From: Escherichia virus ESCO5
Lineage: Duplodnaviria; Heunggongvirae; Uroviricota; Caudoviricetes
Virus record (IMG/VR): IMGVR_UViG_2974610597_000001
Length of the DNA: 64,000 nt
Reading direction: 5' to 3' (one strand)
A program made the position numbers and the translations under genes. This document shows, one piece after another, positions 30,278 to 56,838 of this stretch. The notes beneath the pieces were generated by a model. It saw nothing but the letters and a program-made list of their open reading frames with translations, did not search any database and was not told the DNA's origin. Within the stretch, counting starts at the first letter, position 1, and each line of letters opens with the position of its first letter.

Positions 30278-32302
30278 ATGAATTTAACAAGACCTAATAG
30301 TGCGATAGCCGATCTAGTAGAAGCTACTTATCGAAAACGTCGCAGTTTTGAGGCAGGTTTTACATTACGTAATTCCCGTGAAGTTTTGCTGTTAGCGGCA
30401 GAAGGGAATTATTACCAATGGAAAGGAACTTTTCCTAAAGTAGTTCCAGCAAACTCTACGCCAGCCACCACAGGTGGTATTTCTTCCCTTGCATGGCAAA
30501 GTGTTGGGACCGCTGATGATATAGCAATTATCAATGCCAAGTTTACGGCAATGCAGCAACAGATTGATGATCTGTCGGAAACAATACCTGAAGCTGGTAA
30601 ATCGGCTTATCAGATCGCACTTGATAATGGTTTTGTTGGAACAGAAGCACAATGGCTTGCTTCTTTGAAAGGGGATACTGGTGCTCAACTTAATATTAAA
30701 GGATCATTAGCAAGCACTAGTGAACTACCATCTACAGGTAACGTAGCAGGTGATGGTTATATTGTAGGAGATGTAATCTACGCTTGGGATGGGGCTGTTT
30801 GGAAACTTATCTCTTCTCTTGGGCCAGAAGGGAAATCAGCTTACGAGGTATGGTTAGCAGATGGTAATACAGGATCTGTTTATGACTTTCTTGCCTCTAT
30901 AAAAGGTGATAAAGGAGACGTTGGTCCTACAGGTCCACAGGGTGCACCTGGTGTCAACGCTAATGGTTTTGATTACCGTGGAGATTTGCCTTCTACAAGT
31001 AACTTACCACAACCTAACTCTGAAAACGTAAGCCAAGCTTATTCTATTAATGGTAATCTTTATGTCTCTAATGGGACAGCTTGGGTCAACATGGGTAATA
31101 TTGTTGGTCCTCAAGGTCCACAAGGTGAGGCAGGTAAAGACGGTCTAGATGGAACAGATGGAGACGAAGGGAAATCTGCATATCAAAGTTGGCTGGATGC
31201 TGGTAATGAAGGGACAGAAGTAGATTTTATTGCCTCACTTAAAGGTCCAAAAGGAGACAAGGGTGATCAAGGAGAGCGAGGTCCACAAGGTGAACTAGGT
31301 CCACAAGGACCAGTGGGTGCAACAGGATCAGGTTTAGAGATTATCGGGGTTCTGAACAGCGAAGCTGAACTTCCTCCTACTGGAGAAGTAGGTGATGCAT
31401 ATAAAATTAATAATGATTTGTATGTTTGGGTTCAAGATGCTACAGAATGGATGAATGTAGGCAGTCTTGGAGGAACATCAATTACAGCTAAAGGTCATGT
31501 TCCGAACAGTGAAGCTCTCCCTGTTTATAATAACTACGGTGATGCCTATTTAACTGAAGACACTAGTAATCTTTACATCTATACCTACGATCAAGACACC
31601 AATTCCGCATCTTTTGTTGACATGGGAAGTATTAAAGGCGACAAAGGTGAAAAAGGGGATAAAGGAGATAAGGGTGATCCTGGAACAAACGGAACCAACG
31701 GTACTGATGGGACCAACGGTAAGGACGGCGCACAGTGGTTTGTAGCAACAACTAATCCAGTCACAGGAGACGGTGTTATCAATGATTACGCCTTCAATAC
31801 TACCACTGGAGCAGTATTTAAGAAAACAGATTCTTCTACGTGGACACTTATAGGAACTCTTCCTAGTATACCAGAAGCCCCTCAAGACGGCTTGACGTAT
31901 GGTCGTTCTGATGGAAACTGGATCGAAATATCAGGATCAGATCCTACGGAAGCTATAACACCAACTAGAGTTACAGCAGGTTTCATGGAACTTGAAACAA
32001 CTACTGCCAACTCTGGAGCATCTTGGACTCCTTCTGGAACTTCCAATATGTATGTTGTTACAGTAACTGACGCTCTGACAGTTGGAGCATGGCCTGGTGT
32101 CACTGGCTCTACAAAACCTAAAGCGTTTTCAGCAATGATTTATTTGATTCAAGATACAACGGGACACACGGTTACACTAGATGCGTCTTATGGAGCACTA
32201 AATGATACAGAAATAGCAACTACTGCTAACGCAGTAACAATTTTGCAATTAACGTATCCTGGTGTGGGTGATATCGTGGACATGGTTGTTGTAACACGAT
32301 AA
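30278..32302 (+). CDS. collagen-like tail fibre protein
   Basis: 674 aa with four Gly-X-Y tracts, three copies of a GKSAY..WL..G..G...DF.ASLKG motif, and four copies of a ~40-aa LP.TG..GDAY...LY.W...W...G motif. Confidence 0.7.
   Translation: MNLTRPNSAIADLVEATYRKRRSFEAGFTLRNSREVLLLAAEGNYYQWKGTFPKVVPANSTPATTGGISSLAWQSVGTADDIAIINAKFTAMQQQIDDLSETIPEAGKSAYQIALDNGFVGTEAQWLASLKGDTGAQLNIKGSLASTSELPSTGNVAGDGYIVGDVIYAWDGAVWKLISSLGPEGKSAYEVWLADGNTGSVYDFLASIKGDKGDVGPTGPQGAPGVNANGFDYRGDLPSTSNLPQPNSENVSQAYSINGNLYVSNGTAWVNMGNIVGPQGPQGEAGKDGLDGTDGDEGKSAYQSWLDAGNEGTEVDFIASLKGPKGDKGDQGERGPQGELGPQGPVGATGSGLEIIGVLNSEAELPPTGEVGDAYKINNDLYVWVQDATEWMNVGSLGGTSITAKGHVPNSEALPVYNNYGDAYLTEDTSNLYIYTYDQDTNSASFVDMGSIKGDKGEKGDKGDKGDPGTNGTNGTDGTNGKDGAQWFVATTNPVTGDGVINDYAFNTTTGAVFKKTDSSTWTLIGTLPSIPEAPQDGLTYGRSDGNWIEISGSDPTEAITPTRVTAGFMELETTTANSGASWTPSGTSNMYVVTVTDALTVGAWPGVTGSTKPKAFSAMIYLIQDTTGHTVTLDASYGALNDTEIATTANAVTILQLTYPGVGDIVDMVVVTR
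30596..31730 (+). repeat. in-frame coding repeats (collagen-like triplets and tail-fibre repeat modules)
   Basis: Seen directly in the translation of 30278..32302. Confidence 0.7.
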
Positions 32303-51942: not shown

Positions 51943-52140
51943 TTACTCCTCCTCCTCATTGAAGTCAATATCTGCAAGGAGTTCGAATTTACGGAAGTTA
52001 CGACAACCTTCATAAATATAACAATCACGACAAACTGCTAGAACACTTGGGGGATATATGCCTCCCATCGGTGCGAATCGTTTTTCGTCATCATAACGGA
52101 CACCAATGTCTTCATCAATTATATAGATACGGATTCTCAT
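51943..52140 (-). CDS. hypothetical small protein
   Basis: 65 aa with CRDC...C and a C-terminal EEEE. Confidence 0.35.
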   Translation of the reverse strand: MRIRIYIIDEDIGVRYDDEKRFAPMGGIYPPSVLAVCRDCYIYEGCRNFRKFELLADIDFNEEEE

Positions 52141-53249
52141 TTACCAAGCCCTCGTTTCACAGCAGCTACCATCCCGTCTTCCAGAGATTGAACTTCATTA
52201 ATATAATCAACACGAGCAGCACGGGCTTCCGTATTGATGCGGTTAGTTTCTTCCAACATCTTAACCAAGTTTTCCTGATCGTGACGCAGAGTTTCAATAT
52301 CCAACACTTGACGGTTAGCCAGTGCTGCTGCTTCGATCTGATTCTGTGTGGCAAGATCGCTACCTAGTTTAATTGCCAGGTTAAATTCATCAAGAACGTT
52401 ATTCTGCGTCTCTGCTGCTTTCATTTGACGTAAGCTCTCGATATACATTGAGAAGTTAGCAGAGTAAGCAGGAATAACATTATTTACTATGTTACGCGCA
52501 GATCGCATTAAGCTTGCAGAAACTTTTTGCATACCTTGTACACGCGGTCCCATTTGGACACACAGTAGGCGCAACGCCTTTAAATCTGCAATACGAATCT
52601 CCAGGAGATCCAAAGTATCTCGGATCACTTGTCGCTGTTCTACGGCATCTTCTGGAAGAGCAGCCAAAGCTTGTTCTTCTTTTTCATAGGTTGCTGTTAG
52701 AAGCTGCATATCTCGGTTCAAACTTGCAGCATATTGTCCAATAGCTTGGTGTAGCTTTTCAAGATATACCAAGGAATCTTCTTCTTTGCGAATATCCATT
52801 TGAAGGTTCTTTACCAACTCTTCAATACGGTTATTAACATTATCAAACTCCCCAAACAGGTCTTCTTTCATACCCATAACTTTTTTAATGAGTTTAGTAA
52901 TACCCTTGCTTTGTTTAATAGAGTTTGGATCAAGTTGTTTTGCCTGTTTAATCAAGGCTGTGAGTCGTTCACTCATCTGATCGCCTTGATTACTACGTTG
53001 ATGTTTTAACACCTCGGCATTCAAGGAACGCAAGGTTGTTCCTGCCTCTGCCCCAATCTCTTCGATCTCTTGTCGGGTCATAGAAGGTAAAACTGGAACT
53101 TCTTGCGGTGCTGCTGGTGCATAAACAGGACTGGCATCTAACACACTTGGAGCAAATACAGATTTACTTGCATCTGTTGTTGCAGCGAATACACTCATTT
53201 CAGACTTCTTCTGACCACCAGTAGCTGCTTTTAAAAATGGACTTGTCAT
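52137..53249 (-). CDS. TelA-like helical protein
   Basis: 370 aa, predicted all-alpha coiled coil with a low-complexity N-terminus; size and composition fit the TelA/KlaA family; sits between the TerD/vWA genes and TerC. Confidence 0.45.
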   Translation of the reverse strand: MTSPFLKAATGGQKKSEMSVFAATTDASKSVFAPSVLDASPVYAPAAPQEVPVLPSMTRQEIEEIGAEAGTTLRSLNAEVLKHQRSNQGDQMSERLTALIKQAKQLDPNSIKQSKGITKLIKKVMGMKEDLFGEFDNVNNRIEELVKNLQMDIRKEEDSLVYLEKLHQAIGQYAASLNRDMQLLTATYEKEEQALAALPEDAVEQRQVIRDTLDLLEIRIADLKALRLLCVQMGPRVQGMQKVSASLMRSARNIVNNVIPAYSANFSMYIESLRQMKAAETQNNVLDEFNLAIKLGSDLATQNQIEAAALANRQVLDIETLRHDQENLVKMLEETNRINTEARAARVDYINEVQSLEDGMVAAVKRGLGK

Positions 53250-53836
53250 TCTTCATTCTCCTCTTCTGCATCTCTTATATATGGTGAAACACCGTACTCT
53301 TTAGCTACTTTAACCCAATCATCCCATTTATACAACCATAATTTTCCTTCAGTTCCTTCTTTATCTGATTTCAACCACATGTTAGGTTGCTTGCCTGGGT
53401 ACATGCGATTAGGTTTACGATTATAACCTCTAACACATCTTGTCGCAAACCTATCTACCAGAACAAGAACATATTTATATTCGTGGTTCAACGGCTCTTT
53501 GGAAGTGGCTTTAGGATTAGCTCCTAATTCTGCTGCCAGTTTTTGCCAATGAGCACCGTGTCTACTAAACTTACCCATACAACCATCAATAGCATGAGCA
53601 ATTTCGTGCTTCATTGTATCCACGATCATATCTCTTGTAGAGTTCTTATGCAAGTGCCAATTTACAACAACAATTTTATCTCGGTAGTTGCACCAACCGA
53701 AAGAGTTATTAACTTTGTTTCTAACACAAGCTTTATATCCTGCTTCACGTAACATGTTGTAGTAAACAGGAAAATCTTCTTTTATTTCCTGCATCACTTC
53801 CCACCACAAGAGTTGCAAGTCTCTCTCGGTATGCAT
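53246..53836 (-). CDS. SprT-like zinc metallopeptidase
   Basis: HEIAHAI (HExxH) and a downstream His/Cys-rich segment (GCMGKFSRHGAHW). Confidence 0.45.
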   Translation of the reverse strand: MHTERDLQLLWWEVMQEIKEDFPVYYNMLREAGYKACVRNKVNNSFGWCNYRDKIVVVNWHLHKNSTRDMIVDTMKHEIAHAIDGCMGKFSRHGAHWQKLAAELGANPKATSKEPLNHEYKYVLVLVDRFATRCVRGYNRKPNRMYPGKQPNMWLKSDKEGTEGKLWLYKWDDWVKVAKEYGVSPYIRDAEEENEE

Positions 53837-53839
53837 AAC

Positions 53840-54433
53840 TTACACCTTAAAAGCGAAATGCGTGGTCGTGGCTTCAAAATCAGGGCCAGATAAACTTGCA
53901 CTGAAATCTGAAATATTTGTAATTAAAAAGCTTTTATGCATACCTAACACAGCCACGCTTTCAATATCTTCTACTAACATTTCAATCATGTTAGAAACAT
54001 GGCTGAACGTAGAGTTTTGTTTTTTGATGGTGTAGAAAGAAAGATTCCCACCTGCTATATAAGACACCTCTTCAAAATCTTTAATCGTATATTGTGTGCC
54101 ATCAGTAAAGAAAATGGTAGCTTTATTAGTAGCACGTTTCTTGTTTTTTGGTCCTTTTTTACGTTTACTGCGAGTAGGCAAACCGTTTGGAAATACCGTA
54201 GCTACAAATTCTTCAGGAGAAACCTCCTTACCGAAATCATAACCGTAAGAAACAGCGTCTATAAACTCGTCGTCTTCATTTTTAAAATAATGAAAATAGG
54301 GCCAATTTGAGAGATTATCGAGCATCTTATGCTCATCCACAGCAGAGAACGTATCCCTCAAAGCACGTGTGATTTGCAAAGCATTAGGCAAACTTTTAAC
54401 ACCTGTAATGGAAGTACGAATAGAAATTGTCAT
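53840..54433 (-). CDS. hypothetical protein
   Basis: 197 aa with a basic patch (RSKRKKGPKNKKR). Confidence 0.4.
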   Translation of the reverse strand: MTISIRTSITGVKSLPNALQITRALRDTFSAVDEHKMLDNLSNWPYFHYFKNEDDEFIDAVSYGYDFGKEVSPEEFVATVFPNGLPTRSKRKKGPKNKKRATNKATIFFTDGTQYTIKDFEEVSYIAGGNLSFYTIKKQNSTFSHVSNMIEMLVEDIESVAVLGMHKSFLITNISDFSASLSGPDFEATTTHFAFKV

Positions 54434-54447
54434 TGTTTTTCTCCTTA

Positions 54448-54885
54448 TTAACGTCGCTTGCTACGAGATGAACTCTTTTTACTTAAAGGACTATTGTAAG
54501 ATTTACGAGTTGTATAGCTACTATTTGTTTTAAAAGTTTGTCTCGGCTTTTCATAAGTTTTTATCTCTTGTTTAGGCTTACTATAAAAATTAGTTTTCGG
54601 TTTAGGTGTATTATAATGCTTATTAATAATCGTTCTGTTATCGTTATAATCCCCACTGCTACGATTACTACCGCCACTCATCATATGCCCTAACAACATA
54701 CCTGTAGCAAACTCACCAACACCGCTACTACTAGAACCGCCACCATTGTTGATAATAGTTGTATCTCCGTCAGATCCTTGTTGAGCGTATTGTTGAGGAG
54801 GTTGTTGGTATTGTGCAGGATTTGTTTCATCCTCGCAAGCTGTTAAAAAGATACAACCAATTAAAATCAGGGCTAGTTTTTTCAT
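54448..54885 (-). CDS. lipoprotein
   Basis: Start at internal Met: MKKLALILIGCIFLTAC with lipobox LTAC; mature part rich in Gln/Pro/Gly/Ser/Asn/Lys. Confidence 0.6.
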   Translation of the reverse strand: MKKLALILIGCIFLTACEDETNPAQYQQPPQQYAQQGSDGDTTIINNGGGSSSSGVGEFATGMLLGHMMSGGSNRSSGDYNDNRTIINKHYNTPKPKTNFYSKPKQEIKTYEKPRQTFKTNSSYTTRKSYNSPLSKKSSSRSKRR

Positions 54886-55068
54886 ATTTGCTTTCCTCGT
54901 TTTGGCTATTAATACATCTGTGTTTGAAATCTCCAGAGAAGCAATAAAGTTGCTCTCCATCTCGGTATAAACTCACTTTACTGCCGTTGATTACGCTTGT
55001 CAATACAAAAATTACAACAAACAACCCTATTGCAAAACAAATATTTTCAAACACAACCAACAAGTATT

Positions 55069-55419
55069 TCATTTTAAAAATACCTCATCATCAGTTTCAT
55101 TATCCCAGAAGAACAAGTCCCAACCATTCGGATCATTCCATTTAGCTGCTGGAGAAGTCCATATTTGCTCGATATCAATATTCAAAACTTCACCGTTTCG
55201 TTTTGAAACAGCTTTAGTTAATTCCCAACGGGATACAGGCTCCACTTCCCCTGAACCACTCCCACAACAAGCTACCACATTAGGAGGCAAATTAATTGGA
55301 TCTTTGGTCACAATCATAACGCTTACCCCAGGGTAAACTTTTGAAAGATAATCTAAAACGTAATCCACATCACCAGATAAATCCCAAACAAGTTCTTGAA
55401 TTTCATCAAAATTATTCAT
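55069..55419 (-). CDS. hypothetical protein
   Basis: 116-aa ORF downstream of TerC. Confidence 0.4.
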   Translation of the reverse strand: MNNFDEIQELVWDLSGDVDYVLDYLSKVYPGVSVMIVTKDPINLPPNVVACCGSGSGEVEPVSRWELTKAVSKRNGEVLNIDIEQIWTSPAAKWNDPNGWDLFFWDNETDDEVFLK

Positions 55420-55437
55420 AAGTCTCTCCTATAAAAT

Positions 55438-55455
55438 AGCCTCCCGAAGGAGGCT
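55438..55455 (-). terminator. hairpin terminator after terC
   Basis: On the - strand AGCCTCC, TTCG loop, GGAGGCT, then ATTTTAT. Confidence 0.45.
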
Positions 55456-55461
55456 CATCTA

Positions 55462-56535
55462 TTAAACAGCAGCTTCTTCTTTTTCAGGGAAGATAAAGCT
55501 TGCAATAACACCAAGAGATAATGTGCCTAGAACAATCATCAGACTTACGTTAGGGGAAATATCATGCGGGAGGAATGACCACTTGGCATGAAGTGTTTCA
55601 CCGAACGGGTGATACATAAGTTTAGCACCAACAAACACCAGAACCACAGCAACAGCTTTCTCTAAGTGAACCAGATATTTCACAGCTACACTTAACACAA
55701 AGAAAAGTGCACGTAAACCAAGAACAGCCATCAGCATTGCAGAATAAACTAGCAGAGGTTCTTGTGTCACACCGATTACAGCCGGAACTGAATCAAAAGA
55801 GAAGACAATATCTGTAAGCTCAATAACAAACACACAAAGAAGAGCAGGAGTTGCATATTTAATACCATTCTTAATGGTAATGAACTTTTCACCATCTAGT
55901 GCATTGTGCACAGGCAGAACTTTACCTACTAAACGAACAGCCCAATGCTTAGAGTAATCAATATCCTCTTCTTCGTCACCACCTTTGATGATAGCCACGG
56001 CAGACCAAGCTACAATCAAACCGAACAACACTTGGACCGACCAATGAAGGTTAAACAAAGCGGTCCCTGCTGCAACAAAAATACCTCGGAAGACAATGGC
56101 TCCTGCAATCCCCCAAAGTAAAATCTTATGTTGAAGATGTGTGCTCTTAATTCCAAAGCTTGCAAAAATTGCCATGAATACCATCAGGTTATCTACAGAA
56201 AGACTCTTTTCCAACACATAGCCACTTAGGAAAAGCGCGGCAAACTCTTTACCATGTTCTACCCAAATGAATGCGTAATATCCTAAAGCTAAAGCAATCC
56301 AAAAAACAGACCAAAGCAAAGCAGATTTAATTCCAATTTCTTTATTTTTACCATGTTCTACCCAAATGAATGCGTAATATCCTAAAGCTAAAGCAATCCA
56401 AAAAACAGACCAAAGCAAAGCAGATTTAATTCCAATTTCTTTATTCTCTTTATGACCAAAGAAATCGATACCAATAGACAATGCCAAAATACCAACTAAA
56501 ACAACTACATCAATAATTGGGAAACCGAGTTGCAT
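55462..56535 (-). CDS. terC: TerC-family integral membrane protein
   Basis: Multi-pass membrane protein with LEKSLSVDN and TDIVFSFDSVPAV motifs; contains an internal exact 33-aa duplication. Confidence 0.8.
   Translation of the reverse strand: MQLGFPIIDVVVLVGILALSIGIDFFGHKENKEIGIKSALLWSVFWIALALGYYAFIWVEHGKNKEIGIKSALLWSVFWIALALGYYAFIWVEHGKEFAALFLSGYVLEKSLSVDNLMVFMAIFASFGIKSTHLQHKILLWGIAGAIVFRGIFVAAGTALFNLHWSVQVLFGLIVAWSAVAIIKGGDEEEDIDYSKHWAVRLVGKVLPVHNALDGEKFITIKNGIKYATPALLCVFVIELTDIVFSFDSVPAVIGVTQEPLLVYSAMLMAVLGLRALFFVLSVAVKYLVHLEKAVAVVLVFVGAKLMYHPFGETLHAKWSFLPHDISPNVSLMIVLGTLSLGVIASFIFPEKEEAAV
56248..56445. repeat. perfect 99-bp tandem duplication (2 copies) inside terC
   Basis: 56248-56346 is identical to 56347-56445; in frame; CTCTTTA occurs at both 56245-56251 and 56446-56452. 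Confidence 0.95.
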
Positions 56536-56616
56536 TCTTTTCTCCTCTCTTTGCGGGGAACTATTCCCCGCTTCATTTGATATATATCTTACTCTTTTTA
56601 AGAACTATGTCAACAC

Positions 56617-56838
56617 TTATTTTGTTGAATGAGAGGAAAAGATTCCTCGTAATACCGCCAGAATAAACGAAACACAAACCACGGTCCAGAAGGTTACTGG
56701 GACAGTGATATCTGCATGACCCATAACTTCAGCAACATAGTTGTAAGCCAGCAACAGTAACCAAGCTGGAATCAAACTAAGCATAAAAGCAATAACAAAA
56801 AAGCTTACCACCGCAATAATACCTGCAAAAACACCCAT
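56617..56838 (-). CDS. small two-TM membrane protein
   Basis: 73 aa with two hydrophobic helices. Confidence 0.45.
   Translation of the reverse strand: MGVFAGIIAVVSFFVIAFMLSLIPAWLLLLAYNYVAEVMGHADITVPVTFWTVVCVSFILAVLRGIFSSHSTK

What the first reader, a model, noticed from the sequence alone, without database searches (positions are those of the whole stretch)
56248..56445. Perfect in-frame 99-bp tandem duplication inside terC
Two identical 99-bp copies abut each other and duplicate a 33-aa transmembrane segment (NKEIGIKSALLWSVFWIALALGYYAFIWVEHGK) of the TerC-like protein. A 7-bp microhomology (CTCTTTA) sits at the left edge and right after the second copy. Zero divergence means a very recent event or an assembly artefact. 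If real it adds a helix and probably changes topology, and could be a reversible expansion/contraction site.
Basis: seen in the sequence. Interest (0 to 1): 0.6.

Follow-up and report, generated by a model that had tools for sequence, protein, structure and literature searches.

The report
Assembly-join duplication in phage terC
The perfect 99-base doubling inside the phage's terC gene is really in this sequence, but it is almost certainly a genome-assembly leftover (an untrimmed overlap the size of an assembler word) that the depositors later removed, not biology.

Summary
Window 56248-56445 is a 99-bp unit repeated exactly 2.0 times at 100% identity, in frame in a TerC-family gene (357 aa instead of 324). 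The window is Escherichia phage ESCO5 (Phapecoctavirus). Deleting one copy makes all 63,901 remaining bases identical to the current GenBank version KX664695.3, which has one copy. All 48 related phage records have one copy, and the copy-to-copy junction is absent from viral, genome and metagenome collections. The 357-aa protein survives only as a UniProt entry, with no contig on record. ESCO5 was assembled with SPAdes from 2x250 reads, and 99 is a standard SPAdes k value. The current record carries the same kind of scar: a perfect 55-bp x2 duplication (another SPAdes k) exactly where locus-tag numbering wraps, absent from relatives. The sizes fit: 149,312 (2017 paper) - 99 = 149,268 (v3) - 55 = 149,213. 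The repeat has no junction microhomology in register. Verdict: an untrimmed k-mer overlap at a contig join, not a real feature. Low interest, apart from the similar scar still in RefSeq.

The parts
56248..56346 (.). Copy 1 of the 99-bp unit. In the current GenBank version only one copy exists, at KX664695.3 positions 119,282-119,380.
56347..56445 (.). Copy 2 of the 99-bp unit, identical to copy 1. Removing either copy reproduces KX664695.3 exactly.
55462..56535 (-). TerC-family membrane protein gene as it reads in the window (357 aa, UniProt A0A1D8EQC2). The corrected gene is 975 nt / 324 aa (ESCO5_00054, UXM65509.1).
56245..56251 (.). Left CTCTTTA heptamer. It overlaps the first 4 nt of copy 1 and is not in register with the repeat.
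56446..56452 (.). Right CTCTTTA heptamer, directly after copy 2. It is 102 nt from the left one in single-copy sequence.

Best explanation
The 99-bp duplication is a finishing artefact in an early version of the ESCO5 GenBank record. A de Bruijn assembler (SPAdes) gives a circular or circularly permuted phage genome as a linear contig whose two ends share exactly k identical bases, and neighbouring contigs also overlap by k. If the sequence is then re-opened or joined, for example to make it collinear with phAPEC8, without trimming that overlap, the k bases become a perfect tandem duplication of exactly two copies at an arbitrary position. Here k = 99 and the join fell inside terC. Because 99 is divisible by 3, the reading frame stayed open and produced an apparently intact 357-aa protein. 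Shown: the duplication is absent from the later record version and from all relatives, and a second scar of this kind sits at a demonstrable contig join in the same record. Inferred: the k list actually used, and the exact manual step that created the join.
For: (1) The window minus one copy equals KX664695.3 over all 63,901 bases. In v3 the TerC CDS has a new protein accession, UXM65509.1 (324 aa), while most neighbours keep AOT/AQM accessions. So the depositors changed this gene in the latest revision. (2) The 357-aa protein is held only by UniRef/MetaClust (A0A1D8EQC2) with no contig on record, and no gene with that product is on record. The 324-aa ESCO5 protein is on 12 contigs. (3) All 40 listed close relatives span about 1300 nt for the 1401-nt query. 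An 80-nt probe across the copy-to-copy junction is never matched in one piece in 48 records; its halves map to the two ends of one 99-bp unit. The junction 25-mer has 0 hits in the viral, genome and metagenome collections, and the 1401-nt terC-region query (window 55300-56700) has no hit in E. coli genomes. [quoted passage not shown] From my own knowledge of the SPAdes manual, 99 belongs to the SPAdes k series 21,33,55,77,99,127. (5) The current record has a perfect 55-bp x2.0 duplication at 145,412-145,521. It is the only perfect tandem duplication and the longest exact repeat in the whole v3 genome. It lies exactly where locus tags wrap from 00001 to 00274 and is absent from ESCO37, REC, ESCO25, phAPEC8, ESCO13 and others. 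55 is the k that SPAdes selects automatically for shorter reads. (6) The sizes close exactly: 149,312 (2017 paper) - 99 = 149,213 = 149,268 (v3) - 55. (7) Exactly 2.0 copies with zero extension on either side means there is no junction microhomology. (8) Published cases show SPAdes phage contigs with k-length identical ends that must be trimmed before re-opening (127 bp), k-sized internal repeats shown by Sanger sequencing to be artefacts (about 79 bp), and SPAdes contig-end overlaps in general.
Against: No reads are available, so the artefact is not shown at read level. The k values used in 2016 are not stated. If SPAdes 3.1.1 chose k automatically for 250-nt reads (own recollection), the final k would be 127, so k = 99 requires a user-set list. 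Older record versions could not be fetched, so the claim that v1/v2 lacked the 55-bp block rests on the published size only. In principle a real 99-bp tandem duplication could be collapsed by a later k = 55 assembly. The locus-tag origin in v3 is at 145.4 kb, not in terC, so the first assembly must have had a different break point or a second join.
Confidence: 0.9

Rival explanations
1. The duplication is a genuine, very recent in-frame tandem duplication that was present, fixed or as a major variant, in the ESCO5 lysate sequenced in 2015. It was later lost from the stock, or collapsed by the lower-k re-assembly that produced version 3.
For: 2x250 reads can span 198 bp, so an assembler could report a true duplication. 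The frame is preserved. terC is an accessory gene, so a disrupted copy could be tolerated (inference). A 7-mer CTCTTTA lies near both edges, which happens at only about 3% of random positions. A k = 55 assembly could collapse a 99-bp tandem repeat (inference).
Against: The length is exactly a SPAdes k value. There is no microhomology in register, and the CTCTTTA pair predicts a 102-bp duplication, not a 99-bp one. The depositors removed it. It is absent from 48 relatives and from all contig collections. The same record shows a second k-sized scar at a contig join, and the size arithmetic closes if both blocks are overlaps. An extra transmembrane helix would invert the topology of the conserved TerC core, so selection would not favour it.
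Confidence: 0.07
2. The site is a programmed or recurrent expansion/contraction (contingency-like) locus that switches TerC between 9- and 10-helix forms.
For: Only the perfect identity of the two copies and the preserved frame support this.
Against: There is no copy-number variation in any of 48 related records or in the 15 listed members (of 75) of the protein cluster; all full-length listed members other than the queried 357-aa entry are 324 aa. The unit is long (99 bp) and present only twice. No flanking repeat in register exists to drive slippage. The junction was never seen in metagenomes or viral contigs.
Confidence: 0.01
3. The duplication is an artefact of another origin, such as an internal SPAdes mis-assembly at very high coverage or an editing error during submission, unrelated to a k-mer overlap.
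For: The same evidence of absence elsewhere applies. Short-read phage assemblies are reported to contain internal repeats introduced in error.
Against: It does not explain why the length is exactly 99, why the sister scar is exactly 55, or why the size arithmetic closes.
Confidence: 0.02

Closest known systems
k-mer-length terminal overlap of de Bruijn (SPAdes) contigs from circular or circularly permuted phage genomes
   Same: Copies are perfectly identical, there are exactly two, the length equals an assembler k value, the position is arbitrary, and independent assemblies lack it. Published examples include 127-bp ends on SPAdes phage contigs that were trimmed before re-opening and contig-end overlaps created by SPAdes.
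   Different: Here the overlap is internal, not at the record ends, because the sequence was re-opened or joined. k is 99 rather than the commonly reported 127 or 55. It fell inside a gene and by chance kept the frame.
Internal short repeats in short-read phage assemblies shown to be artefacts by Sanger sequencing (about 79 bp, przondoviruses; PMC10438801)
   Same: These are k-sized repeats inside re-oriented SPAdes/Shovill phage assemblies with no excess read depth, removed after validation.
   Different: Those lay near terminal repeats of T7-like genomes. No read-level or Sanger validation is available for ESCO5.
Microhomology-mediated tandem duplication (replication slippage or illegitimate recombination)
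   Same: It is a head-to-tail duplication of about 100 bp with short direct repeats in the neighbourhood.
   Different: A real event leaves the microhomology in register at the junction. Here the in-register microhomology is 0 bp, and the nearby 7-mers predict a 102-bp unit.
TerC/Alx family membrane proteins (Pfam PF03741) encoded by Phapecoctavirus next to a TelA-like gene
   Same: The host gene is an ordinary member of this family: E = 4e-40, 324 aa in all relatives, already annotated as TerC/Alx.
   Different: Nothing differs once the extra 33 residues are removed.

Membership tests
Untrimmed assembler k-mer overlap (finishing artefact) | The two copies are 100% identical, with exactly two copies and no partial third | tested here: met
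   TRF gives 2.0 copies at 100%. Extension is 0 on both sides.
Untrimmed assembler k-mer overlap (finishing artefact) | Length equals a k value of the assembler that was used | tested here: inconclusive
   The assembler was SPAdes 3.1.1 on 2x250 reads. 99 is in the SPAdes k series (own knowledge), but the k list actually used is not published.
Untrimmed assembler k-mer overlap (finishing artefact) | Absent from independent assemblies of the same or near-identical genomes | tested here: met
   KX664695.3 has a single copy and is otherwise identical. There are 48 single-copy relatives. The junction gives 0 hits in three collections. No contig encodes the 357-aa protein.
Untrimmed assembler k-mer overlap (finishing artefact) | Located at a contig end or join | not testable with these tools
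   The first assembly's contig ends are unknown. For the sister 55-bp block in v3, the join is shown by the wrap of locus tags 00001|00274.
Untrimmed assembler k-mer overlap (finishing artefact) | No reads span the copy-to-copy junction, and read depth is normal over the unit | not testable with these tools
   Raw reads are not available here.
Genuine microhomology-mediated tandem duplication | Short direct repeat in register at the duplication junction | tested here: not met
   There is 0 bp of in-register extension. CTCTTTA is 102 nt apart and gives a different product.
Genuine microhomology-mediated tandem duplication | Reproducible in independent sequencing of the same isolate | tested here: not met
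   The depositors' later version has one copy.
Contingency / copy-number-variable repeat locus | Different copy numbers among close relatives | tested here: not met
   All 48 records have a single copy. All full-length listed cluster members except the queried 357-aa UniProt entry are 324 aa.
TerC family (Pfam PF03741) | Significant match to the TerC profile over its full length | tested here: met
   E = 4e-40, 137.9 bits against a cut-off of 27.8, profile positions 2-177 of 178. The duplicated segment lies N-terminal to the profile match.

The most novel reading that the evidence does not exclude
The originally sequenced ESCO5 stock really carried a de novo, in-frame duplication of transmembrane helix 2 of its TerC protein. 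That would be a snapshot of a membrane protein gaining a helix, which was later lost from the stock or collapsed by the re-assembly.
Probability: 0.06. Interest if true: 0.3.

Novelty: not a real feature. Interest (0 to 1): 0.05.

Why it matters
Biologically it does not matter: phage ESCO5 has an ordinary 324-aa TerC protein. It matters for data hygiene. The superseded sequence and its 357-aa protein (UniProt A0A1D8EQC2) still circulate in derived databases, where they could be mistaken for a TerC variant with an extra helix. The current GenBank/RefSeq record (KX664695.3 / NC_047776.2) appears to carry the same type of scar, a 55-bp duplication at 145,412-145,521. A perfect tandem duplication with exactly two copies and a length of 21, 33, 55, 77, 99 or 127 bp is a useful red flag when screening SPAdes-derived phage genomes.

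Tried and rejected
1. Microhomology-driven duplication: rejected. The period-99 identity does not extend past two copies, and a crossover between the two CTCTTTA heptamers would add 102 bp and does not reproduce the window.

2. Ancient or shared duplication in relatives: rejected. All related records are single-copy.

3. Independent occurrence elsewhere: searches with the junction 25-mer in the viral, genome and metagenome collections found nothing. A search of complete E. coli genomes with the 1401-nt terC-region query found nothing. An exact look-up of the 357-aa protein on contigs found nothing.

5. A k-mer overlap at the ends of the current record: none found. The overlap turned out to be internal, at 145.4 kb.

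6. REC, the laboratory recombinant of ESCO5, as an independent witness: not informative. According to the 2023 paper its terC region derives from ESCO37.

7. Literature searches for an explicit statement of the ESCO5 record revision, or for 99-bp SPAdes overlaps, found nothing specific.

8. Structure prediction and large protein searches were not run, because they would not affect the verdict.

Full report
**Observation.** Tandem Repeats Finder reports one strong array in the window: 56248-56445, period 99, 2.0 copies, 100% identity, no indels. Direct comparison confirms that the two 99-mers are identical and that the period-99 identity stops immediately on both sides. It is the only perfect tandem duplication in the 64-kb window, and no other exact repeat of 20 nt or more exists there. 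The repeat lies in the minus-strand ORF 55462-56535 (357 aa). That ORF matches Pfam TerC (PF03741) with E = 4e-40 over the whole profile. The duplicated 33 residues (31-63, repeated as 64-96) contain the second hydrophobic segment and lie N-terminal to the Pfam match.

**What the window is.** Megablast identifies the window as Escherichia phage ESCO5 (Stephanstirmvirinae, Phapecoctavirus), with window position x equal to KX664695.3 position x + 63,034. The current record is 99 bases shorter here. Removing one copy from the window gives a sequence identical to KX664695.3 over all 63,901 bases, with no other difference. In the current record the gene is ESCO5_00054, 975 nt / 324 aa. It has protein accession UXM65509.1, whereas most neighbouring genes keep accessions of the older AOT and AQM series. 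I infer that the depositors changed this protein in their latest revision. The 357-aa protein is found by exact look-up only in UniRef/MetaClust (UniProt A0A1D8EQC2, UniParc UPI000864A13A), with no contig on record. The 324-aa ESCO5 protein is on 12 contigs from NCBI, ENA and Logan. No gene with the 357-aa product is on record in the assembly collection. The window therefore comes from a superseded version of the record.

**Relatives and other collections.** All 40 listed near-full-length relatives span 1300-1303 nt for the 1401-nt query, which means a single copy. An 80-nt probe centred on the copy-to-copy junction is never matched in one piece. In 48 records its two halves map to the two ends of one 99-bp unit. 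The junction 25-mer has no exact match in IMG/VR contigs, in GTDB species genomes or in JGI metagenomes, and the 1401-nt terC-region query has no match in complete E. coli genomes. Of the 15 listed members (of 75) of the 90% protein cluster, every full-length one except the queried 357-aa UniProt entry is 324 aa. The two-copy arrangement exists nowhere except in the old ESCO5 record.

**How it arose.** The 2017 announcement states that ESCO5 was sequenced with Nextera libraries and MiSeq 2x250 reads, assembled with SPAdes 3.1.1, annotated with Prokka, and is 149,312 bp long (PMC5374246). From my own knowledge of the SPAdes manual, 99 is one of the k values in the series used for 2x250 reads (21,33,55,77,99,127). 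De Bruijn assemblers output a circular or circularly permuted genome as a linear contig whose ends share exactly k bases. Published phage examples report 127-bp identical ends that were removed before the genome was re-opened. [quoted passage not shown] Another study found repeats of about 79 bp inside re-oriented short-read phage assemblies and showed by Sanger sequencing that they were artefacts. If such a contig is re-opened or joined without trimming, the result is a perfect, exactly two-copy tandem duplication of k bases at an arbitrary site with no junction microhomology. That is the anatomy seen here.

**A second scar in the same record.** I checked where the annotated contig had its ends. 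Locus tags in KX664695.3 run downwards along the record and wrap between ESCO5_00001 (ends 145,404) and ESCO5_00274 (starts 145,541). A 1201-nt probe across that gap spans 1201 nt in ESCO5 but 1146 nt, 55 fewer, in ESCO37, REC, ESCO25, AV125/126, PD06, phAPEC8, ESCO13 and others. Tandem Repeats Finder then finds a perfect 55-bp x 2.0 duplication at record 145,412-145,521, exactly in that gap, and ESCO37 has a single copy in alignment. After rebuilding the whole 149,268-bp record, this 55-mer is its only perfect tandem duplication and its longest exact repeat. 55 is also a SPAdes k value. The 2023 paper from the same group states that the genomes were assembled with SPAdes 3.5.1 as single contigs. 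The sizes close exactly: 149,312 - 99 = 149,213 and 149,268 - 55 = 149,213. The simplest model is that the non-redundant genome is 149,213 bp and that each record version carries one untrimmed k-mer overlap. The overlap was 99 bp at a join inside terC in the early version and is 55 bp at 145.4 kb in the current one.

**The microhomology claim.** CTCTTTA occurs at 56245 and 56446. In single-copy sequence the two sites are 102 nt apart. A crossover or slippage between them would add 102 bp and keep a CTCTTTA between the copies, and the simulated product does not equal the window. A shared 7-mer within 12 nt of two points 99 nt apart occurs at about 3% of random positions in this genome. That is mildly unusual but mechanistically irrelevant. 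On the coding strand both heptamers encode a Lys-Glu pair in the loops that flank helix 2.

**If it were real.** A crude hydropathy scan predicts 9 hydrophobic segments in the 324-aa protein and 10 in the 357-aa form. The extra one is inserted between segments 2 and 3. One added helix would invert the membrane orientation of either the N-terminal pair or the whole conserved TerC core, so loss of function would be likely. Nothing suggests that selection or a switching mechanism maintains such a form.

**Remaining uncertainty.** No reads could be examined. The k list used in 2016 is unpublished, and automatic selection for 250-nt reads would, as far as I recall, end at 127, so 99 implies a user-set list. 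Older record versions could not be fetched. A true 99-bp duplication could in principle be collapsed by a k = 55 re-assembly. That alternative requires three things to be coincidences: the length being exactly 99, the absence of junction microhomology, and the closing size arithmetic. I give the artefact explanation about 0.9, a real transient duplication about 0.07, and other explanations the rest.

**Comparison with what is known, and verdict.** The gene is an ordinary, already annotated TerC/Alx-family gene of Phapecoctavirus, sitting near a TelA-like gene. The duplication matches a known class of assembly-finishing artefact. It fails the tests for a microhomology-mediated duplication and for a copy-number-variable locus. 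It is not a real feature, and interest is low. The practical by-products are that a 357-aa phantom protein persists in derived databases, and that the current RefSeq record probably still holds a 55-bp scar of the same kind.

Noticed in passing
Outside the window: KX664695.3 / NC_047776.2 positions 145,412-145,521 (L006 4413-4522): This is a perfect 55-bp x2 tandem duplication in the current ESCO5 record. It sits exactly where locus-tag numbering wraps (00001|00274) and is absent from ESCO37, REC, ESCO25, phAPEC8 and ESCO13. It is the only perfect tandem duplication and the longest exact repeat in the genome. It is probably an untrimmed SPAdes k = 55 end overlap still present in RefSeq. The unit contains a TTGACA-N16-TAATAT promoter-like site.
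   Followed up: yes
L008 (OQ031492.1, 'UNVERIFIED' Escherichia phage MRostami-2023b) about 144.9-146.1 kb: This is the only other record with the two-copy 55-bp arrangement, with a few base differences between its copies. Its length and coordinates are nearly those of ESCO5 v3. That suggests a reference-guided consensus that inherited the scar.
   Followed up: partly
Hits to window 55300-56700 and to L006 3900-5100: Records named for other hosts are 96-99% identical to E. coli Phapecoctavirus genomes in these regions. They are Acinetobacter phage vB_AbaM_ABPW7, Campylobacter phage B15, Pseudomonas phage PsgM04F, Serratia phage KKP_3264 and Klebsiella phage ZCKP1. The host labels look doubtful, or may reflect contamination.
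   Followed up: no
window 31268-31309 and 31633-31678 (+ strand, tail spike gene ESCO5_00090): The 18-bp and 9-bp tandem repeats found by TRF encode collagen-like Gly-X-Y runs (GDKGDQGERGPQGELGPQGPVG and GDKGEKGDKGDKGDPG) in the tail spike protein.
   Followed up: partly
window 52137-56535 (- strand): The phage carries a TelA-like gene (ESCO5_00060) a few genes downstream of terC on the same strand. This is a tellurite-resistance-type gene pair conserved across Phapecoctavirus and already annotated. Its role in infection is not known to me.
   Followed up: no
KX664695.3 annotation within the window (ESCO5_00105, 00065, 00059): Three further CDSs in the window carry new UXM protein accessions in v3 although the DNA is unchanged. 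These are annotation changes (new or re-started CDSs), not sequence corrections.
   Followed up: partly
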